Source of the DNA: a virus
Virus record (IMG/VR): IMGVR_UViG_3300022822_000017
Span: 3,839-67,838 of that record
Length of the DNA stretch: 64,000 nucleotides
Direction: 5' to 3' (one strand)
The position numbers and the translations under genes were made by a program. The notes below the pieces were generated by a model. The model did not search any database. It had not been told where the DNA came from and worked only from the letters and a program-made list of their open reading frames with translations. Shown here one piece after another: positions 2,391 through 58,200 of the stretch (its first letter is position 1; every line of letters begins with the position of its first letter).

Positions 2391-2393
2391 TAT

Positions 2394-3256: not shown

Positions 3257-3259
3257 AGT

Positions 3260-3409
3260 ATGACAGTAACACAGACACTTAGCTTACACATAGAGGATAA
3301 AATTAGTTATCATGAAAAGCTTAGAATACAATTTGAAGCTAGTGAACAATTTGAGCAGTGTGCTAGGCATAGAGATGAGGTAACAAAACTTAAAAAGATG
3401 TTAGCTTAA
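3260..3409 (+). CDS. 49-aa UVR (UvrB/UvrC-motif)-like coiled-coil protein, not in ORF track
   Basis: MTVTQ...ASEQFEQCARHRDEVTKLKKMLA fits E-x-F-E-x-A-A-x-x-R-D; its TAA overlaps the terminase ATG (TAATG). Confidence 0.6.
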   Translation: MTVTQTLSLHIEDKISYHEKLRIQFEASEQFEQCARHRDEVTKLKKMLA

Positions 3410-18731: not shown

Positions 18732-18761
18732 TTATCTGAGTAACATTTAAAAAACAATACA

Positions 18762-42500: not shown

Positions 42501-45500
42501 GAGAGTTTAAGTAAAATTAACAGTGCTATACATGAAGAGTTAGTTAGCAATGAAACTGCTGTAAGAAAGTATTCTGCATTCCAAAAGCAAATGGAAGCAA
42601 GAGCTAAAGAAAAAGCAGCAGCAGAGAAGGCAGCTGCTTCCTTTAAAAAAGGAGGAGATGATGTAACTAAACCTGATGCAGAAACAATCAAAGCACAAGG
42701 ACAAGAAACTGTTGCAGAAACAGCTACACCTTTGACAGAAGAAGTAGTGGCAAAAAGTGTAGAAACTCCTAAAGCCAAGACTACTGCTGAACAACAAGAA
42801 TATCATCAAGTTAATTCTGATAATATCTTTGGTGCATTAAATGCAGTAGCAGAAGCAACATCTGTTTTACCAGAAACAAATGTAACTTCTGAAACAAGAA
42901 AAGATAAACTTGTTCAAAGCAAACAAGGAGCAATAGAACAAGCTAAACTAGAACAAGTTGTTACAGACTTAAAAGCAGAAAAAGTTGCTTTAAGAGATAA
43001 AGATGGAACAATTTCTGATGAAAACATGAAAAGGTTTAAGTCTATACAAAAACTTATTTCAAAAGCAACTAAAAAAGCTACTAGGGCAGATACTTCAAAT
43101 GGTGTATTTCATGCAATTAAAACTAAAAGTCCTGTAGATGGAGATCCAGTTGTTTTAACACAATCAGATGCAATAAAAGCAGAACAAGATATACAAGAAA
43201 TAATAACTAATGGTCTTAAAAATAAAAAAGACAGCAATGATATTTTATCAGAAATAACATCAAAATATAGTTTTGACATTTCTACTGTAAGTAGTATTCT
43301 TAATTATATTGAGGACCAAGATTCAAGTGTACCAGAAGTAGGTAACAACAAACAATCATTTGCAGCATGGAGAAAAGCTTCTTATGACAATAAGAGAGTA
43401 GAGGAAGACACAGATGATACAGAAGACCTTGATGAAGATGGTTACATAGAAATGATGTTACCAGGAGGTACATACTTAAATGATAAAACTACTGCAACCC
43501 TTAAAGCTTATTATGAAGATAAGATTAAATGGGAAGGAGTTTCTCCCACCTTTCAAGACTTTTGGCTTGAAGCAATTCAAGAAGGTTTTATTGCTAAGAA
43601 TGATTTAAGCAAAGAACAAATTAAAATGCTTGGTTTAAATTGGCAACAAGCTGGTAATGGTAAGAGTAATTGGGAATCTATTTGGGACAAGAATTATGTT
43701 AAGCCTAATAGTTTTTTATCACAAGTCTTTGAAGAGAATGGTTCTTTAGTTAAAACAGAGGAAGAGGTTATTGCAGAAATAGAAGAAGCATCTGAAGCTG
43801 CTGTAATTAAAGCAGAGCCACAACAAGTAATAAACCCTACAACAGGAGCAGTAGTTCCAGTAACTTCTGTAGCAGGTAAAACTTCAGTAGTTACTGCTAA
43901 AGCTAATTTTAAAGCAATAGCTTATCAGAATGAAACATCAGATGTACAAACAGTAAATGGTAAAAAAGTAATACAAGTATCAAAACAAGATACTAATCAA
44001 GGTGTACCAATGCTTGCTGAAAGTAAAACTATAAACATTGTGGCTACTTTAAATAGTAACCCAGGAGATATATGGTCAGTAGCAATGGCAACAGAAGCTG
44101 AATGGGATATACCAGTAGAAGTTACAAATACTGCTAATTGGACAACAGAGTTTATGCCTTTTTCTACATGGGTAAAAAGAAATATCAAAGGAAGAAGCAT
44201 TGAAGACTTTCAAAATTCTCCAGAGTACATTAACAAAGTGCCTATGTTGTATAGAAACAACAAACAGCAAGTTGTTGGTGTAGTAGCTGACTCTGATTGG
44301 TACAGTCCTTTGACAATAAAAGATTCAAGTAAAAAGAATGGAGAATTTGTAGAGCTTAATAACCCTACTGCTGCACATGCTAAGTCTATAAAGGAAGGTA
44401 AAGACAACACTATAGCACTTAGACAAAAGATAGCTAGTGGAGAGGTTACAAACATGGAAGTTGAAACTAGAGATGGAAGTCCTTATGCTAAAGTCCCTAG
44501 AAATCTGCCTGCAGTTTCACTAGAGAAAGCTTCTCCTACTTCTGAAATTGTATTCTTTAAGACAGGTAATTTCTATGGCTTAAACAATGAAAAAATAAAT
44601 GAAGACAAGACTAAGGCTATTACTAATCCAGGTCTTATTAAAAAGTTAAATCAACAGAATAATTCAGGAAACAATAGTGCTTATTATATGAGTCCTGTTT
44701 ATATCAAAGATGGTGTACAGTTTTATGAAGTGATAGCTGTTCTTAGAAAAAATGAGAACAATGAAAATAGTGCTTTTGATGCAGACATACAAACTTCTAA
44801 GTATATCTTAGGTGCACAAAAAGTTTTAAAGTTTCCTGATGCAAACCAACAAGAGTTAGGTATTACTAAAACAGAAGCTTTAGCTCTTCAAGCATTAGTG
44901 AAAGCTCAAACAGGTTTAGATATTCAAGACTATGGTGTAGCTAAAGAACTAGTTCATGGATTAATTGCAATACAAGGTTTAAACAGTGATGCTAAAGACA
45001 GTAAGTTTACTGTATCTTCTAAGAATGTACCAATAATGTACCAAGATAAAAATGGTAACCTTGATACAAAAGAAGTAAGTTTTACAGATGCATTGTTCTT
45101 AGGACAAAGTACAGTAGTGCAAAACACTTATGTAAACAGTAATAATTCAAAAGGTATTACAATCTCTAAAAATTCAGAGGGATCTTTTGATGTAAATGTA
45201 GCTGAAACTTATGAAAAGTTTTTAAGGAAGAGATTGTTTACAGATGTTGTGAGTTATGATATAGGTACTGAAGGTAATCCAAAATTTACCCATTCAGTTC
45301 AGCCTATCATTAAGCTAAAAACTACCACAGCAGTGTCTGTAACTGTTGCACCTCAAGTAAAGAATGAAGTAAAGCCTACAATAGCTGTAGCAAAAGAGAC
45401 ATTAACTGAAGAGCAAAATGAACAAGTCTTAGCTGCACAAAATGCTTTAAGACTGTTAAATGCTTTAAATGAAGGCTCTATTTCTGAAGACTACATAGGA

Positions 45501-48500
45501 GATTTAAAAAACATAAGTAATGTAAAGAAAGCATTAAACTTAGTTTCAACTTTCTTACCTAAACAACAAAGAGAGTTAGGTGGTTACATGTTTTCTTTAA
45601 TAGCAAACAACAGTACAGAAGCAAACAACTTAAATAACACTGAGTTTAAACAGTTAATTGAAAGACTTTATAAAGATAACTTTAGAGCAAAGAAAGCTGA
45701 GATTACAGCACAGTACAATATCATAAAAAGTATTGCAGATAGTGGCAACAGTTCAGAAGCTATACAAGAGCTTTTAAAGAACTTAGTTGCTACTGTAGAC
45801 AATTTAGATATGGTCATTAATAACTTTGACCAAATCTATTTAAAAAAGATAAGGGAAGCAGGTAAGAAGAAATTTATAGATACTAATGTTAAGTCTGCAA
45901 AAGACTTAGAAAAAGAACTAGACAAAGAAGCTTCACAAGCTGAACAAGGGTATGTAAAAGATTACAATCAATCTTCTAATGAAGTAGTACATAAAGATAA
46001 GATTAGCAAGAAGCTAAAGAAAATATTTTCTGAGGTGAGTACAGGTGAGACTGGTTTTATGGGTATAGATTTATACCAAAACTATGACAAGGTGTACAAC
46101 AAGATAGCTAGCTTTATGTCTAACCCTTTACCATTGTCTCCAAACTTTGATACAATGATAGCTAAACTGGAGACAATTCCAGAGTTTGCTTCTATTGTAG
46201 CAAGTTTAAAAGAGTCTGATGTTGATGTTCAAAATGGGTTTGTATCTAACATGTATAAGTATGCAGCTAATGCAAAGTTTATAGCCTTTACTACTAATGG
46301 ACAAACTGGTTTAGAAGGAGAAGTTTGGTTTAGTAACAGAAACAATTTAAAGCAAAAGATAAGAGAAACTTGGGACAACAACTTTAAAAGGAGTGATGTT
46401 GTTACACAAGATTCACTTAACCAAGAAAAGTTACAAAAGTTAGCTGACCAATATGATAGTTGGAAAGGAGAAGGCTTTAACCAGGACCCAGAAGTACTTA
46501 AAGAATGGTTAAGAAGTTTTGGTCTTGATATTTCTGAAGGTACTTGGGATGAACTTGTTGAAGGTAATCTTATGATTAACAGAACAGGTCTTAGTAATGA
46601 GAAGCTATCTTTTGAAGACTTGTTTTATGATGAAGGCAAAAGAAGAGACAGATTGTTTTCTAGTTTAGCAAACTATGCTAAGACTTATGCTAAAACTAGT
46701 TCTGCAATAGACTTTACTAAAAATGATAAGTTAGTTCCTTTTGAAGATATGAATAATATCATGAAAGGGTTAATTGAAATTGAGTCTCATCACAATGCAT
46801 CTCTTGCAAACATTACAAGAAGAGATGGTGGTAAGACTGTAAGTGAGATAGTTTTTCCTAGTCATTTCCTAGACACTTTTAATGCTCTATCTAATAGTGC
46901 TGGTACAGATAAAGCTGGCATCAAAGCACTACAAGAAACTGCTTATGCAGAGAACTCTTATTGGTTAGACTTATTAATGAATGAACCTGCTATGGCTGAT
47001 GTATTCAGTTATGGAGAAACAGGGTTGATGTCTATGAGAAACATGGACAAGCCAATGAATGATTACAGTAAAATAGAAAACTTAAGTTCTCTGGATTACA
47101 TGTATCATCAAAGAGCAATGTTCCAATTCATGAGAACAGAACCTTTCCCAAGATATAAAGGTTTTAAAATGAGAGTAGCAACAATGTCAATACCTACATC
47201 TTCTGATAAAGGTAGAATGATGTTACTTAAAGTTCCTGTATTTGACTTACTTGCAATGGAGAATACTCTTACTGCAAATGACAATGGAACAGTAAACTTT
47301 AGTCAAGACTTAAATGACTTACTTTTTGAGCAGTTAGTGAAGCCTGAACTTAACAGAATAGTAGAACATAAACTACTTGAAACTGAGCCAGACATAAAGA
47401 ACTACAACAAAGGTGCAGTAAGATTTAATGCAATGGCTGGGTTGAATACTCTTAAAAACTCTGAAGGAGTGTCTGCTGTAAAATTCTTAGAGCAAGGTGG
47501 GTCAATAAAAGATTTCACATCTCAATATAAAGATGCTGCAGTTGCTCACATTAAAGAGTTAATGGAGAATGATGTAGTGCAAAACTTAAGTGTTATTGGA
47601 GACACAAATCAAAACTCTGATAACTTTAACAAAAAAGAGTACATAAGTAGAAACACTGCTACTACAAATCAAAAGAAGAAATTAGCTGAATTTGACTATG
47701 TAATAAATAGTTACTTTAACAACACAAACATAATGCAAACTATGGCAGGAGACCCTGCTATATACTTCAACTCAAAAGGAAGTGATTCTACTATAGATGA
47801 CAAAGCTTTACAAGCACAGTACTCAAAAGAATTAGGAGTAAACATGGGTAAAAGACTTGCCTTAATGATTGCACCTGGTATTGTTACAGCTAACTCTGAT
47901 ACTCAAAAACACATTCAGCTGTTCTTGAAAGACCAAAGTGAAGTTGCTAGTATGGCAGAAAACATTGTAGAGTTTCATTATGGAAAGGATGCTTTAAAAG
48001 AAGAGTTCATGGGTAAAACCTATGACCAACACATTAAAGATTTAAGAGATAAGAAGTCTACTGATGTAGTTAAGGAACAATTAAATTTAAAGTTTGCTAA
48101 AGTAGCTAAATTCTTTGATATTGAATCTACTGATGCACAAGAGTACACTACACTTAGAGAACATTTAAGATTGTTAGTAGGAGAAGGTAAAATTACTCAA
48201 GACAAGGCTGATGAAATTCATGACCATGTGTTTGTAAAAAAGTTACCTTTAGATAGAAATGATAAAGATGTTCAATTGGTTTTACAACCTATGAAGCCTG
48301 TTTACACAGGGTCTGTTATCAAAGATGGTATCAATAGAATAATGTATATCAAATCTTCTTCTTTCCCATTAATTCCAGACCTAATTACTGGAACAGGTTT
48401 AGAGCCACTAATGAATAAGATGAATGAGATTCAAGAACTTTCAGGAGGTAAAACTGTAAGAGCTTCATATCAATCTGCTAATAAAGTAGGTGCTATGGCA

Positions 48501-49370
48501 ACTGAAATAGATCCTTTTAGTCAAAATGATTTAGATGGATTAACTACTAATTGGAACAGTACAGATTTACACCCTACTGATAGTATGGTTCTTAATGGTA
48601 TGGGTCTTAAAATACAACAAGACATACCATTTAAGTCTGCTGTAAAAGGAGATGATAAGGTATCTATGGGTACACAAATTTTCAAACTATTATTTGGAGA
48701 TGGAGTTGCAGATATTAACACAGATGACTTTGATGGTGCTTCATTACAAGAAGAGTTCTTTGAAGCTTTTTCTGTAATGATAGACATTAGCAAGCAAAAC
48801 TTGTTAGACAAATTAGGGTTAGATGAAAACTACAAGCCTATTGATAAAGCTGAATCTTTTGAAAAACTTAGTGAGTTATTAAAAGAATCTGCAGAAGAAA
48901 GAGACTTCTCTGATAATGATTTAAAATTATTAGATGTAAATGAATCAACAAAAAGGGATGGCTCTAAGGTAAATCACTTTACCTTGCCACTATGGTTTTC
49001 TGGGAACAGTAACAAGTTTGAATCTATGCTTACTGCTATTGTAAACAATAAGATATTTAAACAAAAATTACCAGGAAACTCTTTTGTAGTAGGGTCTGAA
49101 GCAGGTCTTACAATAAGAACACAAGAAGATTTGTTCCAAGAAACAGAAGAAGTTGTAGAAGAAGTAGTAGTGCCACAAAAAGCACAACCTGTTGCAACTG
49201 ACTTGACTGCTGAACAAAAAGCAGAAGCTAAACCTGAGTTATCAATGTCTTTTGTAAGTAGGTCTGAACTTACTAACTCTGAAGATATAGATAAAACTCT
49301 TGAAGATAACAATAGAATAAAAGATGAGTACACAGAACTTGAAGACTTAATGGGTTGTTTATGGCAGTAG
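39582..49370 (+). CDS. giant virion protein; C-terminal part is the first (beta-like) half of the virion RNA polymerase
   Basis: 3262 aa; C-terminal motifs KRLALMIAPG, TDAQEYTT, KSSSFPL, SANKVG, KQKLPGNSFV as in crAss-type RNAPs. Confidence 0.75.
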   Translation: MNEEEFLLKYNLKYNEIGALTTLNDVYVSEFSNEEGSVKSHVSKADFDLNNKQQGEVIKSGYEFDETSDYGEYDQKKQSVAKAKLNTYLQDPSFTTLSELPENGSKDPNYQVAFDGIMKEKQKKGEDYFSSFEAMEQNISRTRQQDIEDNVVLSSLETDEERKSYIANQANLKKLEKEHGKDDKTLIKEAAEIEDLAIGPNGIPMMRPDEDANIIEKGMFSVMKGFSDAKSWALAGMTSAGEGIEDEKAKAEYLRLKDEEHVLIAPIATKKKMELQAKMDLLEKQAEDVGYWSRDYAMLNRQHQQMGKKIMELDNFVNKAQFDWSIFSSKTITDIASLGFTDVHEQLLIDLAISKKMENKEELSDLEKGYLETQHTLKDIDGLPLEQSFMHQVTGGTVQSFSFLLGGIGGRAAGKVISRGITTKLAKLSTPLVKTLAVSANVGTQTLLHSNTYNESLKQYVGDVEITEDAEGQPVFLARHDLYNSIKEENRLKLVGLDRAIFQNEGNAKVVAELEASKKSLTAYDNSVKMPMSGAKSLLYGGFETLKEVGSEQFGGAILGKLGSGAKGSIAWMGKKANIGPNKLSIGLEKARRKFSSLDSNALNDFNRMATAVPGKKLIGGQGEEMFEEVLVQVIPTVGSDWQDYKNQLSELTKADFYVKIAAQTFLMRSGMKGVSSAKQKYDTFTKLSSKDRATAKKAQEEMEVLFKTMGKKGGTQADFNKAFMQIGEGKFSITDYNNAIQGLQESGNFEEVSTQEEMKRDFAQKQIQAVQAQGKLKEFKKALNKAKYNKNLDAGTKGHMAFLSQEINEIEGDDATYVNSTQVINLKSKKKYTDRALAKLETSALNQDINESEALDEINKKLNTKDKTVKEIFKGDLKFSLGNIAGMSNNAQEYLALEQQRHSMTEASNELQKEIERVTDFKHQNVLMNEQDYSAYIARVNKKVFKGEITADQFQKYIADQPRSDFKKNLTPESLSKINSAIHEELVSNETAVRKYSAFQKQMEARAKEKAAAEKAAASFKKGGDDVTKPDAETIKAQGQETVAETATPLTEEVVAKSVETPKAKTTAEQQEYHQVNSDNIFGALNAVAEATSVLPETNVTSETRKDKLVQSKQGAIEQAKLEQVVTDLKAEKVALRDKDGTISDENMKRFKSIQKLISKATKKATRADTSNGVFHAIKTKSPVDGDPVVLTQSDAIKAEQDIQEIITNGLKNKKDSNDILSEITSKYSFDISTVSSILNYIEDQDSSVPEVGNNKQSFAAWRKASYDNKRVEEDTDDTEDLDEDGYIEMMLPGGTYLNDKTTATLKAYYEDKIKWEGVSPTFQDFWLEAIQEGFIAKNDLSKEQIKMLGLNWQQAGNGKSNWESIWDKNYVKPNSFLSQVFEENGSLVKTEEEVIAEIEEASEAAVIKAEPQQVINPTTGAVVPVTSVAGKTSVVTAKANFKAIAYQNETSDVQTVNGKKVIQVSKQDTNQGVPMLAESKTINIVATLNSNPGDIWSVAMATEAEWDIPVEVTNTANWTTEFMPFSTWVKRNIKGRSIEDFQNSPEYINKVPMLYRNNKQQVVGVVADSDWYSPLTIKDSSKKNGEFVELNNPTAAHAKSIKEGKDNTIALRQKIASGEVTNMEVETRDGSPYAKVPRNLPAVSLEKASPTSEIVFFKTGNFYGLNNEKINEDKTKAITNPGLIKKLNQQNNSGNNSAYYMSPVYIKDGVQFYEVIAVLRKNENNENSAFDADIQTSKYILGAQKVLKFPDANQQELGITKTEALALQALVKAQTGLDIQDYGVAKELVHGLIAIQGLNSDAKDSKFTVSSKNVPIMYQDKNGNLDTKEVSFTDALFLGQSTVVQNTYVNSNNSKGITISKNSEGSFDVNVAETYEKFLRKRLFTDVVSYDIGTEGNPKFTHSVQPIIKLKTTTAVSVTVAPQVKNEVKPTIAVAKETLTEEQNEQVLAAQNALRLLNALNEGSISEDYIGDLKNISNVKKALNLVSTFLPKQQRELGGYMFSLIANNSTEANNLNNTEFKQLIERLYKDNFRAKKAEITAQYNIIKSIADSGNSSEAIQELLKNLVATVDNLDMVINNFDQIYLKKIREAGKKKFIDTNVKSAKDLEKELDKEASQAEQGYVKDYNQSSNEVVHKDKISKKLKKIFSEVSTGETGFMGIDLYQNYDKVYNKIASFMSNPLPLSPNFDTMIAKLETIPEFASIVASLKESDVDVQNGFVSNMYKYAANAKFIAFTTNGQTGLEGEVWFSNRNNLKQKIRETWDNNFKRSDVVTQDSLNQEKLQKLADQYDSWKGEGFNQDPEVLKEWLRSFGLDISEGTWDELVEGNLMINRTGLSNEKLSFEDLFYDEGKRRDRLFSSLANYAKTYAKTSSAIDFTKNDKLVPFEDMNNIMKGLIEIESHHNASLANITRRDGGKTVSEIVFPSHFLDTFNALSNSAGTDKAGIKALQETAYAENSYWLDLLMNEPAMADVFSYGETGLMSMRNMDKPMNDYSKIENLSSLDYMYHQRAMFQFMRTEPFPRYKGFKMRVATMSIPTSSDKGRMMLLKVPVFDLLAMENTLTANDNGTVNFSQDLNDLLFEQLVKPELNRIVEHKLLETEPDIKNYNKGAVRFNAMAGLNTLKNSEGVSAVKFLEQGGSIKDFTSQYKDAAVAHIKELMENDVVQNLSVIGDTNQNSDNFNKKEYISRNTATTNQKKKLAEFDYVINSYFNNTNIMQTMAGDPAIYFNSKGSDSTIDDKALQAQYSKELGVNMGKRLALMIAPGIVTANSDTQKHIQLFLKDQSEVASMAENIVEFHYGKDALKEEFMGKTYDQHIKDLRDKKSTDVVKEQLNLKFAKVAKFFDIESTDAQEYTTLREHLRLLVGEGKITQDKADEIHDHVFVKKLPLDRNDKDVQLVLQPMKPVYTGSVIKDGINRIMYIKSSSFPLIPDLITGTGLEPLMNKMNEIQELSGGKTVRASYQSANKVGAMATEIDPFSQNDLDGLTTNWNSTDLHPTDSMVLNGMGLKIQQDIPFKSAVKGDDKVSMGTQIFKLLFGDGVADINTDDFDGASLQEEFFEAFSVMIDISKQNLLDKLGLDENYKPIDKAESFEKLSELLKESAEERDFSDNDLKLLDVNESTKRDGSKVNHFTLPLWFSGNSNKFESMLTAIVNNKIFKQKLPGNSFVVGSEAGLTIRTQEDLFQETEEVVEEVVVPQKAQPVATDLTAEQKAEAKPELSMSFVSRSELTNSEDIDKTLEDNNRIKDEYTELEDLMGCLWQ

Positions 49371-49735
49371 ATAAAAAGAACAAAGATTTTATAGAAGAAT
49401 TTGCAATAAGTGAGAAGAGACACAGGGAACTTATTCTCACTATCAAAGGCATAGTTAATGAAATGCCTAAGACTGAAATAGACCTTTCTTCTTTAGAGAC
49501 AGTAAAGGATTCTATTAACAAACTCATTAGTACTCAAAAGTTTGCAAACACTACTCCTGACAATAAAGTAGAACTATTGGACAGTATTAAGAATTTAAGT
49601 GCTAACTTTGTAGAAAGCATGGTTGAGTTAAGAGCTGCAGTTGAGCTATCTAACAGACCCAAAGAGTATGTTTTTCATGTTGAAAGAGACAATGAAGATA
49701 ATAAGATTACTAAAGTAATAGCTAAAACTAAATAA
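49361..49735 (+). CDS. hypothetical coiled-coil protein, first gene of the RNAP-interrupting cassette
   Basis: ATG 49361 overlaps the upstream gene end by 10 nt; ends KEYVFHVERDNEDNKITKVIAKTK. Confidence 0.65.
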   Translation: MAVDKKNKDFIEEFAISEKRHRELILTIKGIVNEMPKTEIDLSSLETVKDSINKLISTQKFANTTPDNKVELLDSIKNLSANFVESMVELRAAVELSNRPKEYVFHVERDNEDNKITKVIAKTK

Positions 49736-49902
49736 TGAAAGCATTTGCAATTGTACAAGATACACAGAACACTGGAGACCAGGACTTATCTGCATATCAA
49801 ACAATTGAAAATGCAGATTATAAACTATCACTAAAATCAGATACAGACCATGAACATGAAATAGGTAACATGAAATTGTTATTTGAAAACTCTTTATTAT
49901 AA
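49735..49902 (+). CDS. 55-aa fibre-associated protein, not in ORF track
   Basis: TAATG overlap; MKAFAIVQDTQNTGDQDLS...LLFENSLL shares NTGDQD with the 50597 ORF and a C-terminus like the 49946 ORF (AFESALL). Confidence 0.65.
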   Translation: MKAFAIVQDTQNTGDQDLSAYQTIENADYKLSLKSDTDHEHEIGNMKLLFENSLL

Positions 49903-49945
49903 ACACAATTACTATTAATATATACAACCATTAACAACAAACACA

Positions 49946-50593
49946 ATGAGCTTAATCCAAAGAATTTCAGACTTAACCATCAGGGTTGGTACTGAATTTA
50001 AAACAGTAAAAACGTTAATAGCAGGAACTGCATCTGGTAGTTTAACAGCATTAACAACAACAGTAAAGACAAGTATTCTTGCAGCAATCAACTCACTTAA
50101 AACTGAAGTAGATGGCAAGCAAGCAAATTTAGGTTACACACCTGAAGATGAAAACAACAAAGGTCAAGCAAATGGATATGCTCCATTAGATGCTAATGCC
50201 AAAGTACCTGCTGCACATTTACCTGCTTATGTAGATGATGTATTAGAATCAGCTGATTTTGCTAGTTTACCAGCTTCTGGTGAAACAAGTATTATCTATG
50301 TAACATTAGATGATAACATCACTTACAGATGGACAGGTTCAGGGTATGTAGAGATTTCTAAATCTTTAGCTTTAGGAGAAACTTCTTCTTCTGCATATAG
50401 AGGAGATAGAGGTAAGATTGCTTATGACCATTCACAGATTACAGATGCTAACCCACACCAAACTACATTTGAGCAATTATTAGCAAAACCTACAACAATT
50501 GCTGGGTTTGGAATTACAGATGCATTTACTAAAGATGAAATTGGAGATGTAACCACAAACTATGTGTCTGCATTTGAATCAGCTTTGCTATAA
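49946..50593 (+). CDS. fibre/whisker-like structural protein
   Basis: NKGQANGYAPLD, LPAYVDDVLE, LGETSSSAYRGDRGKIAYDHSQ, KPTTIAGFGITDA are common phage fibre modules. Confidence 0.75.
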   Translation: MSLIQRISDLTIRVGTEFKTVKTLIAGTASGSLTALTTTVKTSILAAINSLKTEVDGKQANLGYTPEDENNKGQANGYAPLDANAKVPAAHLPAYVDDVLESADFASLPASGETSIIYVTLDDNITYRWTGSGYVEISKSLALGETSSSAYRGDRGKIAYDHSQITDANPHQTTFEQLLAKPTTIAGFGITDAFTKDEIGDVTTNYVSAFESALL

Positions 50594-50596
50594 TAC

Positions 50597-50872
50597 ATGA
50601 GTCTAGTATCTAAAATATATGACTTAGCTGCAAGAATTGCACTAGAAATTAAATCACTTAGGGAGTCAAGGTTGAAAAATACCTCTGACACCCTAGATGG
50701 TGATTTAGATATTACAGGTTATGTTAAAGCAAATGGAACTGTTGAGGGATCTAATTTATCAGGTAACAACACAGGAGACCAAGACACTATATACCCAATG
50801 GTACATAGTGCAAATATGATGATGAAGCAACAAACTGAATTTATTAAATCTATAAACAACAATTGGATATGA
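50597..50872 (+). CDS. small fibre-associated protein, N-terminus paralogous to 49946 ORF
   Basis: MSLVSKIYDLAARIALEIK vs MSLIQRISDLTIRVGTEFK; GSNLSGNNTGDQD. Confidence 0.65.
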   Translation: MSLVSKIYDLAARIALEIKSLRESRLKNTSDTLDGDLDITGYVKANGTVEGSNLSGNNTGDQDTIYPMVHSANMMMKQQTEFIKSINNNWI

Positions 50873-51075
50873 CATCAGAAGAAATAGCTATTATGGCTTT
50901 GCAACAAACTAATTCTGAATTAGTAGCTGCTGTTAATACAACCAAAGCAAATATAGAATCATCAATAAATGATGCAGTTGTCTTAGCTGGAGATACAGTA
51001 GTAGCAGGGTTAATATCAGTTACTAGTAATTCCATAGCTTCTAAGACTATGTTTCTTAGATACTTAAATAAATAA
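50863..51075 (+). CDS. small coiled-coil protein
   Basis: 70-aa ORF (alternative ATG 50869). Confidence 0.55.
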   Translation: MDMTSEEIAIMALQQTNSELVAAVNTTKANIESSINDAVVLAGDTVVAGLISVTSNSIASKTMFLRYLNK

Positions 51076-51078
51076 ATT

Positions 51079-51690
51079 ATGCCAACAAATCAAGACATAG
51101 TAGACAACATAGTTGTTTTAGATGACTCAGTTCAAGAACTATTAATAGAAGCAGGAGTGACTAAAGATGCTGCTGATGCTTTAATAGCTGCTTTTCAAGC
51201 AACAAAAGACAGAGTAGATAATGAACTAAGTGAAGTAGATAATACTACAGATGCTAATAAGCCTTTGAGTTTGTCTATCATAGAAGCACTACTACTTAAA
51301 GTAAATATAAATACTGTAAGTACTGTAAATGGGGTTTCCTTATTAACAGGTGTACCTTTAGTTATAGAAAGGGGTGCAGTATCAAGAAGAACATTATCTT
51401 ATGAATTAAGAGGGACATTAAGAAGTCCTGCAGCACCATTACCAGTTGCTGATGATTCAGTAGTAATAGAATCTATAGGAGAATTTATCTATGTAGAAAG
51501 CACAGGAGAACCTGATGAAGATGAAACATGTTTTACATCAGTACACCCAGATACAGGAGTAGCTATAGGACAATGGTTATTAGAAATACCACATCCAGAC
51601 TACTTAAATGCAGCAGACTTATTTAAAGATGCTATCTTAGATGAATGGATGGAAGATGAAGAAATTAGAATAGCAGGTTACAACAACTAA
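51079..51690 (+). CDS. acidic fibre-associated protein
   Basis: LSEVDNTTDANKPLS fibre motif; EPDEDETCF. Confidence 0.6.
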   Translation: MPTNQDIVDNIVVLDDSVQELLIEAGVTKDAADALIAAFQATKDRVDNELSEVDNTTDANKPLSLSIIEALLLKVNINTVSTVNGVSLLTGVPLVIERGAVSRRTLSYELRGTLRSPAAPLPVADDSVVIESIGEFIYVESTGEPDEDETCFTSVHPDTGVAIGQWLLEIPHPDYLNAADLFKDAILDEWMEDEEIRIAGYNN

Positions 51691-51702
51691 AAAACAATTC
51701 AA

Positions 51703-53127
51703 ATGATAACATTAAAAGCACGTAGAACTCTGAATGCTATTGAGACAGGGACTTTAGATAGTTCAGGTTTAGAAGCTAGATTAGCAGACCCTGGACATTT
51801 AGCAGAATTTTACAGTCTGTTAGCAACTAAAAGCCAAACTAGAAGAATGGCTTCAAGTGAATTAACAATGGAAGCAATTGCTTTTAGTGAAAAAGCTCAC
51901 AAAGCTATTTTTCAATCTTCTACAAATTACAATACAACAGCTGCTCAAGCAGTTGCAGATAGTCCTGTAGCTATGGCTAAAATGGCTGTGTCATTAGATG
52001 CTTTAACAGTAGCTATTGAGAACCCAGTATCATGGGCATTATTTACAAACAGTCCTTACTATGAAGTAAACATTAAAACTATTGTAGCATTATTTGCTGG
52101 ATTAGATGCAAGTCTGTATGAGTCTATTCAAGAAATGATAGAAGACCCTGCAGCAACTTATGAAATTGCAGCAAATGATAATGCAATGACTGCACTTGTA
52201 AATAGTACAATAGCTATGACTAAGGCAGTAGACACAATTACAGCAATGGATGACATTGTAGCTGATACCTCAGCATTTACAATTTTAGCTAATCATGGTC
52301 CTAGTTTAAACTTAGTTGCACAAAGTGCAATAGCTATGTCTGCAACTACTGATGAAGCTAGAGCAATTGTAGTAGGTATTCCTTCTGGACTTAGAATCTT
52401 TGCTTCTTACCCAGTTCTTTGGAAATCTCTAATGGAGACTTCAGAAACTTTAGCCACTAATATGTATAGTTTAATTATTGTACTTACAGAAATAGACCCT
52501 ACTGTCTTTACAACAGTAGAACAAATATTTGGTAATGAAATATCAATGGACAAAGTTGCAAGTAACAGTCCTACTATGGTAGCAATAATGCATGAAGAAG
52601 GTACATTAAATGCAATGATTGCTAGTGCTCAATTAGATGTTGTATTAGCTAATCCTGTGTCAATGGGATTATTTGCAGCAGACACAACAATTATGAGTGA
52701 CCTTATTGGGTCATCAGCATTCACTGCTTTACTAGGAAGTCCTTTAGCTAAAGAAGCAATTTTTGCTTCTCCTTCTTTGATAACAACAATGACAGAAGCA
52801 GGTTCAGATTCTCTTGCAACACTAGAAGGGTTGTCTGTTAACTTAACAGGACCCACACCAGACACTAAGATTGGACAATTTCAAAGCTTAGGTCTTACAG
52901 GTAACATTATTTTGTTAACTGCTAGGATAGGTTCTATTACTGCTGCTAAAGTTGACAACTACTTTAAAGGAGATGGTCAATCAACTGCAACATTTGCTTG
53001 TCCAGGTACTCATGCAGCAAGTGAGTATCCAATAATCAATTTACCATTTACTAATATCCAATGGGATATTAACTCTATTGCAGCAACTGCAGCTGCTAAG
53101 ATTACAGTAACTTATGTTTCATTTTAA
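51703..53127 (+). CDS. Ala-rich alpha-solenoid-like repeat protein, paralog 1
   Basis: Short repeated amphipathic helices (~12-aa period); colinear with the next ORF. Confidence 0.7.
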   Translation: MITLKARRTLNAIETGTLDSSGLEARLADPGHLAEFYSLLATKSQTRRMASSELTMEAIAFSEKAHKAIFQSSTNYNTTAAQAVADSPVAMAKMAVSLDALTVAIENPVSWALFTNSPYYEVNIKTIVALFAGLDASLYESIQEMIEDPAATYEIAANDNAMTALVNSTIAMTKAVDTITAMDDIVADTSAFTILANHGPSLNLVAQSAIAMSATTDEARAIVVGIPSGLRIFASYPVLWKSLMETSETLATNMYSLIIVLTEIDPTVFTTVEQIFGNEISMDKVASNSPTMVAIMHEEGTLNAMIASAQLDVVLANPVSMGLFAADTTIMSDLIGSSAFTALLGSPLAKEAIFASPSLITTMTEAGSDSLATLEGLSVNLTGPTPDTKIGQFQSLGLTGNIILLTARIGSITAAKVDNYFKGDGQSTATFACPGTHAASEYPIINLPFTNIQWDINSIAATAAAKITVTYVSF

Positions 53128-53146
53128 CAACTAATAAGATAACATT

Positions 53147-54589
53147 ATGCCAACACTAAGAGCACTAAAAACATTAAATGAAGTAGAGTCAGGAGCATTG
53201 GATGGTGCAGGTCTTGAACTAAGACTAGTAAATCCAGGGCACTTGGCTGAGTTTTATAGTTTGTTATCTACTAGAAGTCAAACAAGAAGAGTAGCATCTA
53301 ACACATTAACTATGACAGCAATGTCAGTAAGTGAGTTAGCACACAGAGCTATTTTAGCATCTGCAAGACATGATAATACTTCTGCTGCAACTGCAGTATC
53401 AGGTAGTTTAGTAGCTATGAATAAAATATCTATATCATTAGATGCTTTAAACATAGCTATTGAAAACAGAGTTTCATGGGGGTTATTTATAACTAGTGCA
53501 CATTATGAAAACAACATTAAGAGTATTGTATGTTTGTTTGCAGGATTAGATCCTGATGACTATTTTAGTTTAACAGACATGATTGAAGACCCATCTGCAA
53601 CATATCAAATAGCTTTAAGTGACAAAGCAATGGAAGCTTTAGTAAACAGTACAACAGCAATGGCTATAGTTGTAGAAACAGAGACAGCTATGCAAGACAT
53701 AGTTGCCAAAGAATCTGCATTTACTATTCTTGCAAATAATGTTCATAGTGTTAATGAACTAGCAGGAAGTACAATAGGTATAACTGCTGTTACAGATGCA
53801 GCAAGAGCAATAATTGTTAGCATACCAGCAGCATTAAAAGACTTTGCATCACATAATTCTGTATGGGAAGATTGGATGTCAACATCAGAAACTTTGTCTG
53901 ATACTATCTATGATATTCTACTTATTTTAACAGAAGTGGATGGAGCTGAATTTGAAACTACAGAGCAAATATTTGCTAATCCTGTTCCAATGAATAAAAT
54001 TGCAAGTAGTACTTCTGCTATGATAGCAATATTAAATGAAGCAACTACTTTAGGTATTTTTATTAATAGTCCTGAAATAAGTATTGCACTTACTAACCCA
54101 ATATCAATGGGATTACTTGCAGGAGATACTTCAGTAATGGTTGGACTTGTTGAGAATGAAGCAACATTTCCTATCTTATTAAACAGTACTTTATCTAAGT
54201 CAGTTATGTTTGAGTCTAATGATATAGTAAATGCAATAGCAGGTAATGCCTTTGCAATAGCTACTTTAGAAGCTATAGCAGTGGAAGTATTAGCTCCTAC
54301 TTTACCAGATGGAGTAGTTGGAACTTATCAATCATTTGGATTCCCTGGTAAGATGCTTATGTTAGCAGCAAGAATGAACTCTATTGTAGCAACTACAACA
54401 GATGTTGCATTTAGAGGAGACCCAATGTTTGGCTCTGAAGCTGGAACAACTAATGCTTATGCAGGTAAGTCAGCATCTACTGATTATAGAAACCACATTG
54501 CAGCTTATACTGACATGGAATGGGACCCTAAAGTAATCACAGCTACTGCAGCAGCACAAGTATATGTAAGATATGTAGATTTTAACTAA
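53147..54589 (+). CDS. Ala-rich alpha-solenoid-like repeat protein, paralog 2
   Basis: Shares PGHLAEFYSLL, SQTRR, MIEDP, ATAAA with the 51703 ORF. Confidence 0.7.
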   Translation: MPTLRALKTLNEVESGALDGAGLELRLVNPGHLAEFYSLLSTRSQTRRVASNTLTMTAMSVSELAHRAILASARHDNTSAATAVSGSLVAMNKISISLDALNIAIENRVSWGLFITSAHYENNIKSIVCLFAGLDPDDYFSLTDMIEDPSATYQIALSDKAMEALVNSTTAMAIVVETETAMQDIVAKESAFTILANNVHSVNELAGSTIGITAVTDAARAIIVSIPAALKDFASHNSVWEDWMSTSETLSDTIYDILLILTEVDGAEFETTEQIFANPVPMNKIASSTSAMIAILNEATTLGIFINSPEISIALTNPISMGLLAGDTSVMVGLVENEATFPILLNSTLSKSVMFESNDIVNAIAGNAFAIATLEAIAVEVLAPTLPDGVVGTYQSFGFPGKMLMLAARMNSIVATTTDVAFRGDPMFGSEAGTTNAYAGKSASTDYRNHIAAYTDMEWDPKVITATAAAQVYVRYVDFN

Positions 54590-54597
54590 AACATCCT

Positions 54598-55002
54598 ATG
54601 GCACAAGAGCTAAATTATTATGGAAAGATAGCAGAGACAGGTTTAACTGTCATTGCTAAAATATATAACAGTCAAGGAGTGCAAGTGGGTGGAGACATTC
54701 CTTGCACTGAAGCTGGTACTCTTTCTATTTATATTGGAAGTATGCCTACTGCTCCTATTGGAGAATATGGTGTCAGGTTTTTCAATGGCTTAATTCTTTT
54801 AGGTCAGGGTCCAATCTATTGGAGTGGTACTGCTGAACTTAACTTTGATGCTTACAATAAAGTATCTGACACACATAAAATACAAGGATTAGACAGAGAC
54901 CATCCACTAACTGCTACAAGAGATTCTATGAAAGCTGGAGATGTTGACATTGACATAGCAGGAAATGGAGAAACCTTATCAATATTTACTAGAAAAGAAT
55001 GA
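54598..55002 (+). CDS. hypothetical structural-like protein
   Basis: 134-aa beta-rich ORF in cassette. Confidence 0.6.
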   Translation: MAQELNYYGKIAETGLTVIAKIYNSQGVQVGGDIPCTEAGTLSIYIGSMPTAPIGEYGVRFFNGLILLGQGPIYWSGTAELNFDAYNKVSDTHKIQGLDRDHPLTATRDSMKAGDVDIDIAGNGETLSIFTRKE

Positions 55003-55292
55003 GAAGTTCCTTAACTTTGGGCACTAGAGGTAAGTTGTCTAGTAGAGTAAAAAGAACCCTAGTAATAGCTTCTTTTGGTTTTATACAAGTTATAAATACT
55101 GCAGCAGTAGCAGAGAATGCACAAAGAGCACAGATAAATGATGCTAATTTTGTACATTACACTGTTGAAGCACCTGAAGTAAGAGACACTAAACAAGTCA
55201 GTGATTACAATGCAGAGGTAGATAAAAAGAATATCATTGATGATGATAAAGAAGTCCTTTTAATAATTAAAATGTTTACACAATGGCTATAA
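54999..55292 (+). CDS. hypothetical protein, last gene of cassette
   Basis: Ends DDDKEVLLIIKMFTQWL; overlaps the next ATG by 10 nt. Confidence 0.6.
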   Translation: MRSSLTLGTRGKLSSRVKRTLVIASFGFIQVINTAAVAENAQRAQINDANFVHYTVEAPEVRDTKQVSDYNAEVDKKNIIDDDKEVLLIIKMFTQWL

Positions 55293-58200
55293 AATGTCTT
55301 AAAACCACTAAGATTATTCCTTTAAAAGAAGCTTACCTTAAAGCTGTCAAAGATGACATGTCTGATAAAGAAGTAAGAGATTTAAGTACTAAACTTGTAG
55401 TAGATTATTTTAATACTCTTGACAAAGAAATGTCAGAGTTAAAGAAAGGACTAGGAAACACAAAAATACAACCTAAATCTGTTACTTATGAAGCAAAATC
55501 TTTAGAGGAACTTAATCCTTTAGTTGCTCAAGAAGTGGTTACAGAGAAAAGAACTGTAACAAGAAATAAAAAGAAACCAAGAATAAGTGCCATAGTTCCT
55601 GGTAATCAAGTAGTGTATTTAGGAGATTATTCAGGTGCAGAATTAAAAGGAAATGAAGTATTAGCTCCTTCTAAGGTTAAGTTGAATGGTACTTTAATTG
55701 ATTTGTTTGAATCAGATAAGTCTGGGTACAAATACATTATTGAAAATGCAGATGGTAGTTTTCAAATCAATGAAGATAAGATAGACCCAACACTTTTTGA
55801 AAACTTTGGTTTCAGAACTCCAACCTCTTCTCATGGTTCAGGTTCTTTTATCAAAATAGTAGGATTTATTCCTGCAATAATGGGTGACTTAATGATTACC
55901 CCTAAGAATTTTGTTACCCAAATGGGACAAGATTTTGATATTGATAAACTTACTGCTTATCAATACCACCATGCACTAAATAGTGAAGGTAAGATTGTAA
56001 AGTTAAATGAAAGTTTTAAAGAAAACTCTCTTGAAAGCTTAAAGAAAGATTTAGTAGAGCTAAGTAAACAAGGTTCAATAGCAGGTAACACTGGTATTGC
56101 AGTTGCCTTTTTAGACAAAGCAATTACAGAAGCTAAATATGGTCTTACTGAACAAGAATTAACTGACATTATACTTTCAGAAGATGCTGAGGTTGAAGCT
56201 AAAATCAAAAAAGCAAGTAATGCTTTTGATATGAAGATGGCTCAAAACAAGTTTATTGAAATACACAATATTGTTTACAATAATCAAAGTCCTGAAATCC
56301 AAAGAAGAATAAATAAAGTTCTTTCTATGGATGTGGCAACAAGTCAAGCTGAAGGAATTGAAGCAGCTACTACCTCTGGTAATTCAGCTATAAACATTCT
56401 TTCTCCTAACTACCAGATGAACAAGTTAATATCTGGTTCAACAGGTTCTACTGCTATTGGAATTTATGCCAAAGGAGTAACATTTAACTCTTTAGTACAA
56501 CAATCTAAAACCTCTTTAGGTCTTATAGCACTTAATGATAAAGGAGAAGATATAGCTAAAGAAATTAGAATAGGTAACATAACCTCTGATGGTACATTTG
56601 GTAGAAGTAAAACTATAAGTAGAAAAAATGCTAGTGAAGTAGAGTTGTTTTTAGCTAGGACTACTACTGAAGTAATGGATGAAAAAGTAAACACTGCAAC
56701 AGATAATGAGAAAGCACAAATTCTAGGTAGAGTTGGTATTACTCATATTGACTCTGTGGCAGTAGATAACCTTTTATCTTTACTAGGAGTGGATTTAGAA
56801 ATAAAAACTATATTAGAATCTGAATACAATGTGGAAAATAAGTTTCACAAAAAAGCAATTGTAGATGGTAAACCTGTGTTTTATGAGCAGTACTCAATAC
56901 CATATTTACTACATTCTCAGCCTATAATACAAGAGTATTTTGATAGATTAAAAAATGCAAAATCTATTGTAGGAGATTCTCAACCTAACATTGAAGATGT
57001 AATCTTTGAAGAATTAACTAGAGGACACAAGTTTACTGCAAAAAGTGCAGAAACTGCTCAATCAGATATGACAGGTAAAGCCTTAGTTGCTAACTTAGGT
57101 GCATCTGCAAACACTACTAGTCAAAAAGAAATACTTAATATTTACAGAAATTTAATAGCTGATGCTAAACAAGTAAAAGAGCTAAACCAGGTAGTTGATT
57201 TATCAAATGTTGGTAAATCTATGTGGGAATTGAAAGATAAGATTGAAACTTTTGAAGAGTTAAAAAATCCTGATGGCAAGTTTAATAAACTCTTTGACAA
57301 CCCTTTGTCTCTTATGGGAGAGATACAAGATGGAGAGTTTGTAGCTACAACTAATCAAGGTAAAATGGTTAGTACTGCTTTAGAGATGGGTAGAAAATTA
57401 TTCTATGACTTGTACCCTTATTATGACTCTTATATTGAAGAGAAAATACATAACATTGAAACAAGTGCTAATTACACAGGTTCTAAAACTGCACTACAAG
57501 AAGTAATTTTTCAAGAGATTAAAAAATATGTAACTTCTGACCCTAAAAATGGTGTGTTTACTGCATCTCCTACACTATCAAGAGAGAAAATCTTCTTTAA
57601 TAAAGATGGTAATCAATCTCTTAGTAGATACATGGGAGACCTTAGAAGTAAAAACTCTATCATTAAAGACAATGTATTATTAAATGCATTATCTCACACT
57701 GTAGGTATAAATGGTAAACCAGATATCATCAAATTTGATAACACTGAAGGAGCCAACATAACAGAAGAAGATTTCCATATAGCATTCAAAGAATTATTAG
57801 TTAGTGATGTAGCTCTTCCAGATAGAAATGGTCAACCATATTCTACTAGAAAAATGGCACAAGAATTAGTAGCTTATTCACACTTATCAGGTGGAATTAT
57901 AAGTGAAGTTATTGAATTTCACAAGTACATACCTCTTGAGTACTATGAAGACTTAGTTGCTATAAACACTACAAGTACAGGTAAAAAGCAAAAGACCAAG
58001 AGTATCAGAATGATGCAAAGGTATGACACTAAGATAAACAAATGGGGAGACTCAGATTTGTTAAGAAATTTTGAGACACAGTTCTTTCAAAACAATCCTA
58101 ATTATGCACCTATACTAACTAAAAAACAAAAGGAACAAAATGCTACTATTGATGGAGATAGAATGCATCTTACTATAGAAGAAGGAGCAACTCACAAAAA

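What the first reader, a model, noticed from the sequence alone, without database searches (positions are those of the whole stretch)
47700..56800. Virion RNA polymerase split across two giant ORFs by a 5.9-kb, 10-gene structural cassette
Seen: beta-like motifs (TDAQEY, SANKVG, KQKLPGNSFV) end the 3262-aa ORF, while RTP and the catalytic DFDID lie ~170-220 aa into the 2901-aa ORF. Ten unrelated genes (49361-55292) lie between. Knowledge: in phi14:2 gp66 both double-psi barrels are in one chain, and split RNAP genes occur in other crAss-like phages, usually as adjacent ORFs or interrupted by introns/inteins. Here I see no homing endonuclease, intron-encoded protein, intein or recombinase; the interruption is a fibre-like gene cluster, and the break seems to fall within the catalytic core region. 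The enzyme must be reassembled from two ~3000-aa ejected proteins.
Basis: partly seen in the sequence, partly recalled or inferred. Interest (0 to 1): 0.72.

Follow-up and report, generated by a model that had tools for sequence, protein, structure and literature searches.

The report
Phage RNA polymerase split by gene cassette
In this crAss-like phage the giant RNA polymerase carried in the virion, one chain in nearly all relatives, is cut between its two catalytic barrels by ten inserted genes, and the two new chain ends each carry a lone cysteine, as natural protein borders in this gene block do.

Summary
ORF 39582-49370 (3262 aa) and ORF 55283-63988 (2901 aa) are the two parts of a protein that is one chain in relatives. 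They match adjoining parts of one PHROG profile and of FpV4 gp32, and the closest relative found is a single 5901-aa protein.

The break maps to about residue 1250 of phi14:2 gp66. That is just after the Connector (1095-1238) and before the barrel with DFDID, so the enzyme is divided much as cellular beta/beta' are.

About 6.5 kb is inserted (49122-55603): an 82-aa tail, ten co-directional genes and a 107-aa head. Seven of the genes (c2-c8, four fibre-like) recur as a block in an unrelated large phage.

All 29 related loci read at DNA level, and 140 of 151 proteins in the first set, run through the junction. The linker there varies from 8 to 920 aa, and at least one other lineage is split at the same place.

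No intron, intein, endonuclease or recombinase was found. Independent contigs from three runs bridge both junctions.

The 3262-aa half has one cysteine, fourth from its end. The other half starts MAIKC. The same terminal cysteine pair marks 28 of 32 natural borders in this gene block, which suggests the halves are tethered end to end.

The parts
39582..49370 (+). Upstream half P0001 (3262 aa): gp67-like N-terminal part, then the gp66-like part up to the end of the Connector, then the tail
   Evidence: ORF. PHROG 16227 profile positions 1287-3088. Residues 1433-3184 align to FpV4 gp32 1243-2985, and 2846-3231 to gp66 957-1296. It is 56-66% identical to P0009 residues 1-3051.
48117..49121 (+). 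Stretch homologous to gp66 about 957-1250: the region before the Connector (first barrel, inferred) plus the Connector
   Evidence: tblastn and local profile search. Connector limits 1095-1238 are from the preprint passages.
49122..49367 (+). 82-aa tail with no homologue. It ends GCLWQ, and the only Cys of the 3262-aa protein is at residue 3259 (codon 49356-49358)
   Evidence: Homology to relatives stops at residue about 3180. Cys count. No match to other proteins.
49361..49735 (+). c1, 124 aa, unknown function
   Evidence: No PHROG or Pfam family. Only unnamed viral clusters in the Atlas.
49735..49902 (+). c2, 55 aa; has a homologue in L011
   Evidence: 56% identity over 41 aa.
49946..50593 (+). 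c3, 215 aa, fibre-like
   Evidence: PHROG hits include phrog_38707 (3.9e-24) and tail fibre and minor tail families. 84% identical to L011.
50597..50872 (+). c4, 91 aa
   Evidence: 51% identical to L011.
50863..51075 (+). c5, 70 aa
   Evidence: 71% identical to L011.
51079..51690 (+). c6, 203 aa, fibre-like
   Evidence: phrog_35419 tail fiber protein, 1.2e-6. 67% identical to L011.
51703..53127 (+). c7, 474 aa, fibre-like, paralogue of c8
   Evidence: phrog_7809 tail fiber protein, 2.2e-8. 49.6% identical to c8. 79% identical to L011.
53147..54589 (+). c8, 480 aa, fibre-like
   Evidence: phrog_7809, 4.7e-7. 75% identical to L011.
54598..55002 (+). c9, 134 aa, unknown function
   Evidence: No family. 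Unnamed viral clusters only.
54999..55292 (+). c10, 97 aa, unknown function; overlaps the start of the downstream half
55283..55603 (+). 107-aa head with no homologue. It starts MAIKC (Cys5, codon 55295-55297)
   Evidence: Relatives match only from residue 77-108 onward. Apart from the self row, hits cover 22-77% of a 330-aa query, which fits matches that begin after the head; one row at 100% comes from a chance extension. Cys positions.
55604..59170 (+). gp66-like C-terminal part: the barrel with DFDID (55931-55945), the bridge-helix region and the rest of the gp32-like protein
   Evidence: Residues 105-1296 align to FpV4 gp32 2988-4217, and 167-343 to gp66 1311-1480. Profile positions 69-301 align to gp66 1308-1553. 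A model of residues 108-527 (pLDDT 74.5) has 6vr4_A as its only PDB match at E<=0.001.
59171..63988 (+). gp33/gp65-like part, fused in frame to the preceding part with no Cys pair at the old border
   Evidence: Residues 2207-2594 align to FpV4 gp33 935-1293. Residues 1602-2899 match the separate downstream ORF of G002. P0002 has only Cys5 and Cys2315.
49367..49380 (+). 14-nt word GTAGATAAAAAGAA at the left cassette edge
   Evidence: the word occurs exactly twice in the window.
55218..55231 (+). Second copy of the 14-nt word, 52 nt before the ATG of the downstream half
   Evidence: 30 of 5000 random pairs of 300-nt windows share a word of 14 nt or more.

Best explanation
[quoted passage not shown] An ancestor encoded the whole RNAP block as one chain of about 5.9 thousand residues. 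About 6.5 kb of foreign DNA landed in the short, insertion-tolerant linker that follows the Connector between the two double-psi barrels. The insert supplied a stop preceded by an 82-aa tail, ten co-directional genes (seven of them a horizontally shared module, four of those fibre-like), and a new start with a 107-aa head. The enzyme is now made as two proteins. P0001 carries the first barrel and the Connector. P0002 carries the DFDID barrel, the bridge-helix region and the fused gp65-like part. I infer that both are packaged and ejected, and that they rebuild the active centre across a large non-covalent interface, as beta and beta' do. I also infer that the lone Cys near the end of P0001 and the Cys at position 5 of P0002 tether the two halves end to end, most simply by a disulfide in the virion, as at natural borders between consecutive proteins of this block. 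Shown here: the split, its position, its derived state, the foreign origin of c2-c8, and the Cys pattern. Inferred: packaging, reassembly, and the chemistry and purpose of the Cys link.
For: One gene in relatives. Both halves hit consecutive ranges of PHROG 16227. In 29 of 29 Flavobacterium phage records the two matches lie 6 nt apart on one strand, and in FpV4 they lie in one annotated CDS, gp32. All 29 of 29 loci read at DNA level have one open frame across the junction. Of 151 proteins in the first set, 140 are contiguous, and 111 of 122 further proteins have both parts. The closest relative, P0009 (5901 aa), covers P0001 1-3183 at 56-66% and P0002 108-2901 at 59% in one chain.

Position. 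The junction maps to gp66 about residue 1250. The Connector is 1095-1238 and DFDID is at 1361.

Not an assembly artefact. In each of three runs, one long Logan contig bridges the left junction (60.7, 50.3 and 62.5 kb) and an 11.5-kb one bridges the right junction. No contig skips the cassette. The runs may include the source sample.

Foreign module. c2-c8 recur as a block at 51-84% identity in L011, whose 109.6-kb record has no RNAP homologue and which carries SSB, primase and helicase genes upstream of the block.

Functional ends. P0001 has one Cys in 3262 residues, at 3259. P0002 has Cys5. In 149 representatives, 134 end with a Cys in the last 7 residues while the internal Cys frequency is 0.018%. 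By my tally, 28 of 32 borders in 23 loci have both Cys, 3 have neither and 1 has one. Fused forms of about 5.8-6.1 thousand aa lack the terminal Cys.

Independent replicates. In L022 a GIY-YIG gene splits a chain that is continuous and Cys-free at that site in P0086, and the new ends read ..KIDCN and MACKY. P0216 ends 57 aa after the same junction with ..PDCI, its only Cys, and P0017 starts MGC.

Binding model. ipSAE is 0.68 against a best control of 0.25. That mark was reached by 58 of 80 solved complexes and 2 of 110 mismatched pairs. The runs share at least 52% of contacts and the partner pLDDT is at least 60. The interface list includes tail and head residues, among them 810-812 of chain 1 and 4-6 of chain 2. 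The pass may reflect the model's memory of the solved gp66 structure.
Against: There is no expression or protein evidence. This split form is a singleton at 90% identity, so conservation of the split-with-cassette state cannot be tested. Tail and head have no detectable homologues, so their origin is unknown. The Cys rule has exceptions. Three borders have neither Cys and one has only one. P0086, another protein starting at this junction, has no N-terminal Cys. A single Cys on each side fits a disulfide but does not show one, and the gp66 preprint passages I searched do not mention Cys. The three runs may not be independent of the assembly. The borders tallied are related by descent, so the counts are not independent events.
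Confidence: 0.7

Rival explanations
1. The split is real and functional, but the terminal cysteines do not link the halves to each other. They serve another purpose, for example binding a metal, a capsid or portal partner, or regulating the zincin-like protease domain reported in this block. The halves are held together only by their non-covalent interface.
For: There is only one Cys per terminus. No direct evidence for a disulfide exists. A zincin-like domain in gp65 orthologues is mentioned in the preprint. The tally includes one one-sided border and P0086 lacks an N-terminal Cys.
Against: The two Cys are gained together at new breaks (the window, L022, and P0216/P0017). They are absent together in fused forms and in 3 borders. 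This co-occurrence points to a pair.
Confidence: 0.2
2. The polymerase gene is dead: the insertion destroyed it and the contig represents a defective or decaying phage.
For: The split form is a singleton. There are no RNA data.
Against: Two frames of 3262 and 2901 codons remain open. The window keeps every column that is invariant in its relatives, DFDID included. The new ends carry the Cys signature, which random decay would not produce. Word depth is about 25-90 in three runs.
Confidence: 0.05
3. The cassette is removed or bypassed so that one chain is made, by an intron, intein, trans-splicing or DNA excision.
For: Introns, inteins and unexplained disruptions are reported in crAss-like RNAP genes (PMC7886860, passages seen). 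A 14-nt direct repeat lies at both cassette edges.
Against: No Rfam family matches 48500-56200 beyond one chance-level hit at E 0.74. The giants have no Hint, intein or LAGLIDADG hit, and the cassette genes have no endonuclease or recombinase hit. No contig joins across the cassette. Recombination between the 14-mers would keep the stop codon of P0001, as read. The cassette genes are ordinary ORFs with homologues in another phage.
Confidence: 0.03
4. Metagenome misassembly placed the fibre module inside the gene.
For: The middle of the cassette (51471-52533) breaks into short variant unitigs.
Against: Long contigs cross both junctions in three runs. Genes overlap at both edges. The tail and head extensions with their Cys pair cannot come from a chimeric join.
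Confidence: 0.02

Closest known systems
[quoted passage not shown]
   Same: Sequence is homologous on both sides of the break. It has the same DFDID motif. 6vr4_A is the only significant fold match. The gene sits in the same place, after the structural and cargo genes. gp67, gp66 and gp65 have the same terminal Cys pattern.
   Different: gp66 holds both barrels and the Connector in one 2180-aa chain. Here the chain ends about 12 residues after the Connector equivalent and restarts 5.9 kb downstream.
Flavobacterium phage FpV4 gp32/gp33 and the fully fused form P0009
   Same: These are the closest relatives, with the same block order. The junction is colinear to within a few residues.
   Different: The barrels are in one chain (4287 aa or 5901 aa), with no cassette and no Cys at the linker.
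Cellular multisubunit RNA polymerases (beta and beta'), and their natural splits such as cyanobacterial rpoC1/rpoC2 and archaeal A'/A'' (the split examples are recalled, not from a call)
   Same: The two barrels lie on separate polypeptides that assemble into one active centre. The preprint states this arrangement for cellular enzymes.
   Different: The border is not of common descent. There are no alpha or omega assembly subunits. The genes here are separated by ten unrelated genes, and the proteins are virion cargo.
Disrupted RNAP genes of crAss-like phages (PMC7886860, passages seen; supplements not seen)
   Same: Protein borders in the transcription block vary between close relatives. Interruptions by introns and by a LAGLIDADG element are described.
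   Different: Those cases involve introns, inteins, in-frame stops or recoding. Here there is an ordinary stop, ten ordinary genes and an ordinary start, with no mobile-element gene.
L022 (an IMG/VR crAss-like contig): a block protein split by a free-standing GIY-YIG gene
   Same: An inserted gene cuts a chain that is continuous in relatives, and both new ends gain a short extension with a terminal Cys.
   Different: It has one homing-endonuclease gene, a different site in the block, and a 241-aa insert gene rather than a 10-gene cassette.

Membership tests
crAss-like virion two-barrel RNA polymerase (gp66 family) | DxDxD catalytic motif (DFDID) in the second barrel | tested here: met
   P0002 residues 217-221. 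The motif aligns with gp66 DFDID in the profile alignment. The three Asp columns are invariant in 22 sequences.
crAss-like virion two-barrel RNA polymerase (gp66 family) | Sequence homology to gp66 on both sides of the Connector | tested here: met
   blastp E 3.7e-13 (P0001) and 2.5e-9 (P0002). Profile E 1.4e-19 and 2.9e-13.
crAss-like virion two-barrel RNA polymerase (gp66 family) | Fold like 6VR4 | tested here: met
   For the downstream half only: the model has pLDDT 74.5, and 6vr4_A is the sole hit at E<=0.001 (7.3e-5, probability 1.00), though TM is only 0.22. The upstream half was not modelled.
crAss-like virion two-barrel RNA polymerase (gp66 family) | Both barrels in a single polypeptide, as in gp66 and QDE-1 | tested here: not met
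   A stop at 49368-49370 and a new start at 55283, with ten genes between.
crAss-like virion two-barrel RNA polymerase (gp66 family) | Packaged in the virion and ejected into the host | not testable with these tools
   Only the gene position supports it: it follows terminase, portal, major head protein, a 1883-aa virion protein and two Cys-free proteins.
Intron-, intein- or homing-endonuclease-interrupted gene | A self-splicing RNA, a Hint/intein domain or an endonuclease gene in the insert | tested here: not met
   Rfam e-value scan of 48500-56200 gave one chance-level hit. Pfam and PHROGs on both giants and all ten genes gave no such family.
Horizontally mobile tail-fibre module | Fibre-like proteins that recur as a colinear block in an unrelated phage genome | tested here: met
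   c3, c6, c7 and c8 hit fibre or tail PHROGs. c2-c8 are colinear in L011 at 51-84% identity. That record has no RNAP homologue. Receptor binding itself was not testable.
Multisubunit beta/beta' RNA polymerase | Barrels on separate chains, plus the conserved assembly subunits and a homologous subunit border | tested here: inconclusive
   Separate chains: met. No alpha- or omega-like partner was looked for beyond the family scans. The border is derived within a single-chain family. It works like this family but is not a member.

The most novel reading that the evidence does not exclude
Every break in the polypeptide of the crAss-like RNAP/cargo block is bridged by a link between a Cys at the extreme C-terminus of one protein and a Cys at positions 3-6 of the next. 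The link is probably a disulfide formed in the virion and reduced in the host. The ejected proteins would then leave the capsid as one continuous thread, whatever the number of genes. This window shows that the need lies at protein level, because the two partner genes are 5.9 kb apart and the pair was created anew at an insertion-made break.
Probability: 0.4. Interest if true: 0.85.

Novelty: new variant of a known kind. Interest (0 to 1): 0.72.

Why it matters
A single-chain two-barrel polymerase has here been turned into a two-subunit enzyme at the inter-barrel linker, by a plain insertion event and with a datable one-chain relative. It is a natural replay of the step that separates single-chain from beta/beta'-type polymerases.

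It also marks that linker as a site that tolerates cuts and insertions of up to 920 residues, which is useful for engineering and for annotating these very divergent genes.

The terminal cysteine pair gives a simple, testable hypothesis for how crAss-like phages keep their huge ejected proteins in order. The pair is gained at new breaks and absent from fused forms. I found no mention of it in the paper text I searched; supplements were not visible.

Tried and rejected
PDB sequence searches. Searches with either giant or with profiles A1 and A2 did not return gp66. The mapping therefore rests on the phage record and on the fold search.

Structure models.

Origin of the tail and head. A BLAST extension suggested that the head copies the end of the Connector. 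I rejected this: z 0.01, with 237 of 500 shuffles reaching the score. Tail against the start of the second-barrel region gave z 1.8 (33 of 500). Head against tail gave z 1.0 (85 of 500). Apart from the M-x-C start, head N-termini show no significant similarity to the N-termini of gp33/gp65-like proteins.

Signals in the DNA. Promoter-like and terminator-like sites show no excess over shuffles. The repeat finder found no long repeat flanking the cassette.

Cassette genes elsewhere. They were not found in the rest of the window, in the flanks of relatives or in G002. c7 has no tblastn match in the 50,697 phage records. The Atlas gave only unnamed viral clusters for c1 and c9.

Contexts of the other split forms. 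The contigs of P0017, P0086 and P0099 were not found in viral, metagenome or genome contigs, so whether they hold a cassette is open.

Expression. No RNA holder was listed.

Earlier findings.


Full report
**What is there.** The window is the right-hand 64 kb of a 67.8-kb linear IMG/VR virus record, estimated 72% complete. Its gene order is that of a crAss-like phage:
- large terminase at 3409, portal at 5486 and major head protein at 9202;
- a fibre-like gene at 17787;
- a 1883-aa virion protein at 30468;
- two proteins of 481 and 655 aa;
- then the two giants, 39582-49370 (P0001, 3262 aa) and 55283-63988 (P0002, 2901 aa).

Ten co-directional ORFs fill the 5.9 kb between the giants. The first overlaps the stop of P0001 and the last overlaps the ATG of P0002.

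**The two giants are pieces of one gene.**
- Both hit PHROG 16227 in consecutive ranges: profile positions 1287-3088 and 3404-4332 of 4401.
- The nearest cultured relatives are Flavobacterium psychrophilum phages. In 29 of 29 records the match to the end of P0001 and the match to the start of P0002 lie 6 nt apart on one strand. In FpV4 both lie in one annotated 4287-aa CDS, gp32.
- By blastp, P0001 1433-3184 aligns to gp32 1243-2985 and P0002 105-1296 to gp32 2988-4217. P0002 2207-2594 aligns to the next protein, gp33. P0002 is therefore the distal part of gp32 fused to a gp33/gp65-like protein.
- The closest relative in a library of 1.84 billion representatives is P0009, a single 5901-aa chain. 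It matches P0001 1-3183 at 56-66% and P0002 108-2901 at 59%, with a 77-aa in-frame linker between them.

**Where the break falls.** Against the best DNA-level relative (L004, 56-62% identity) the homology of P0001 stops at about residue 3180 and that of P0002 starts at residue 108. L004 has only about six residues between these points. The inserted DNA is therefore about 49122-55603. It comprises an 82-aa tail, the ten genes and a 107-aa head.

On phi14:2 gp66 the junction maps to about residue 1250 by tblastn, or 1240-1262 by profiles. Passages of the gp66 preprint give the Connector between the two barrels as residues 1095-1238, DFDID as 1361-1365, the bridge helix as 1529-1559 and the trigger loop as 1598-1636. 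P0001 therefore keeps the first barrel and the Connector. P0002 keeps the catalytic barrel; its alignment to gp66 reaches 1553 and so covers the bridge helix, and by colinearity it should also hold the trigger loop. This is the arrangement of beta and beta' in cellular enzymes.

A model of P0002 108-527 from a 22-row alignment (pLDDT 74.5) has 6vr4_A as its only PDB match at E<=0.001 (E 7.3e-5, TM 0.22).

**How unusual the split is.**
- At DNA level, 29 of 29 related loci have one open frame through the junction. At least three pairs of these loci look like the same phage.
- At protein level, I classed 151 proteins with two profiles. 140 are contiguous. Five are fragments that begin inside the distal part, and one is a fragment that begins 39 aa before the junction. 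One is P0001. Four start with their own non-homologous head just before the junction: P0002, P0017, P0086 and P0099.
- Of 122 further proteins, 111 hit both profiles. In four more, the DFDxD barrel sequence follows the proximal match in the printed sequence.
- One protein, P0216 (3204 aa), ends 57 aa after the junction. P0216 and P0017 come from contigs of the same length and source, so they are probably one split pair.
- That pair is only 32-35% identical to the window's halves, whereas contiguous forms reach 59-66%. The same linker has therefore been cut at least twice.
- In contiguous forms the linker is mostly 8-20 aa but reaches 920 aa. L024 has a gap of about 583 aa between the two profile matches. 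The site is an insertion hot spot.
- I could not fetch the contigs of the other split forms. Whether any of them holds a cassette is open.

**The cassette.** c3, c6, c7 and c8 hit fibre or tail PHROGs, and c7 and c8 are paralogues. The other six genes have no family. No endonuclease, recombinase, intein or intron RNA was found.

c2-c8 recur colinearly at 51-84% identity in L011. L011 is part of a 109.6-kb virus record that has no homologue of either half. There the block follows SSB, primase and helicase genes. The module therefore moves between unrelated phages and lands in odd places. The window also has a fibre-like gene in the usual structural region, so this module is an addition.

A 14-nt word occurs only twice in the window, once at each cassette edge. 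Of 5000 random pairs of 300-nt windows, 30 share a word that long. I found this after the fact, so it is only suggestive.

**Is it an artefact?** In three runs labelled salt lake metagenome, Logan contigs of 50-62 kb cross the left junction and contigs of 11.5 kb cross the right one. No contig joins across the cassette. The runs may include the source sample, so this is not fully independent support. The gene overlaps at both edges and the features of the new ends argue the same way.

**The new ends look like natural borders.** P0001 has one cysteine in 3262 residues, at 3259, four from the end. P0002 has Cys5 and Cys2315. This matches a general pattern:
- In 149 representatives (570,142 residues), 134 have a Cys in the last seven residues while internal Cys frequency is 0.018%.
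- In 122 further proteins the figures are 117 and 0.0044%.
- The ORF that follows starts M-x(1-5)-C.
- My tally of the tables covers 32 borders inside the block, in 23 loci. 28 have both Cys, 3 have neither and 1 has one.
- In phi14:2 the pattern runs gp67 ..TIC | gp66 MAC....ECK | gp65 MSC.
- Forms in which the border is fused (P0009, P0093, P0134, P0135, and P0002 at its internal fusion) lack the pair.

Two further natural experiments agree. In L022 a GIY-YIG gene (PF01541, 30.9 bits) splits a chain that is continuous and Cys-free at that site in P0086. The new ends read ..KIDCN and MACKY. P0216 ends ..PDCI with its only Cys, and P0017 starts MGC.

In the window the two partner genes are 5.9 kb apart. 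A signal in the DNA near a shared stop and start therefore cannot explain the pair.

Exceptions and limits are as follows. P0086 has no N-terminal Cys. The borders I counted share descent. I saw no direct evidence for a disulfide. The passages I searched in the gp66 preprint and in the crAss001 structure paper do not mention terminal cysteines of these proteins, although the latter reports disulfides elsewhere in the virion. Two library searches found nothing on the point. Supplements were closed.

**Reassembly.** A complex model of P0001 2780-3262 with P0002 1-500 scored ipSAE 0.68 against a best control of 0.25. That mark was reached by 58 of 80 solved complexes and 2 of 110 mismatched pairs. 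The runs share at least 52% of contacts and the partner pLDDT is at least 60. The best-defined contacts pair residues 610-620 of chain 1 with 316-327 of chain 2. They also pair the LPGNSF stretch of P0001 with residues 223-226 of P0002, next to DFDID. The interface list also includes most of the tail and head, among them both cysteines' neighbourhoods. Because gp66 is solved, the pass may be the model's memory of that fold. It shows likeness, not binding.

**Verdict.** The finding stands. It is a derived, probably functional fission of a single-chain two-barrel virion polymerase at the inter-barrel linker. The cause is the insertion of a horizontally acquired gene module, with no parallel for the cassette among about 300 relatives. 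The most interesting by-product is the terminal cysteine pair, which suggests that the proteins of this block are linked end to end.

Noticed in passing
window 49356-49358 and 55295-55297; loci L001, L002, L004-L009, L017-L029, L044-L051: Proteins of the crAss-like RNAP block are almost free of cysteine, yet they end with a Cys in the last 7 residues and the next protein starts M-x(1-5)-C. By my tally, 28 of 32 borders have both, 3 have neither and 1 has one. Fully fused forms lack the pair.
   Followed up: yes
L022 14981-20024: A free-standing GIY-YIG endonuclease gene (18373-19098) sits between two ORFs that align to adjoining parts of one chain in P0086 and P0135. The new ends read ..KIDCN and MACKY, although the continuous homologue P0086 has no Cys there.
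   Followed up: partly
proteins P0216 and P0017 (ENA, contig length 64,103 for both): This is probably a second split pair at the same inter-barrel linker. It is only 32-35% identical to the window's halves, so the cut is independent. What lies between the two genes could not be read.
   Followed up: partly
junction equivalent in P0080, P0083, P0045, P0147, P0087 and L024 8179-9929: The linker after the Connector carries in-frame insertions of 200-920 aa in several lineages, against 8-20 aa in most. The nature of these inserts was not examined.
   Followed up: no
window 49367-49380 and 55218-55231: The same 14-nt word lies at both edges of the cassette and nowhere else in the window. It falls in the same codon phase in c1 and c10 (the codons for VDKKN).
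   Followed up: partly
L011 7900-12900: The c2-c8 module sits directly after SSB, primase and helicase genes in a 109.6-kb virus record that CheckV rates 35% complete. This is an unusual place for fibre-like genes.
   Followed up: partly
window 49166 and 55846: In all three runs another contig follows the window up to these points and then diverges. A co-occurring relative therefore shares the first 15 residues of the tail. Extra depth in these bins is about 4-22.
   Followed up: no
window 51471-52533: The end of c6 and the first part of c7 break into short alternative unitigs with clustered base differences in the three runs. This indicates strain-level variation in a fibre-like gene.
   Followed up: no
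window 59171-63988: The gp33/gp65-like protein is fused in frame to the polymerase part. G002 has three ORFs over the same stretch (2859, 254 and 1089 aa).
   Followed up: partly
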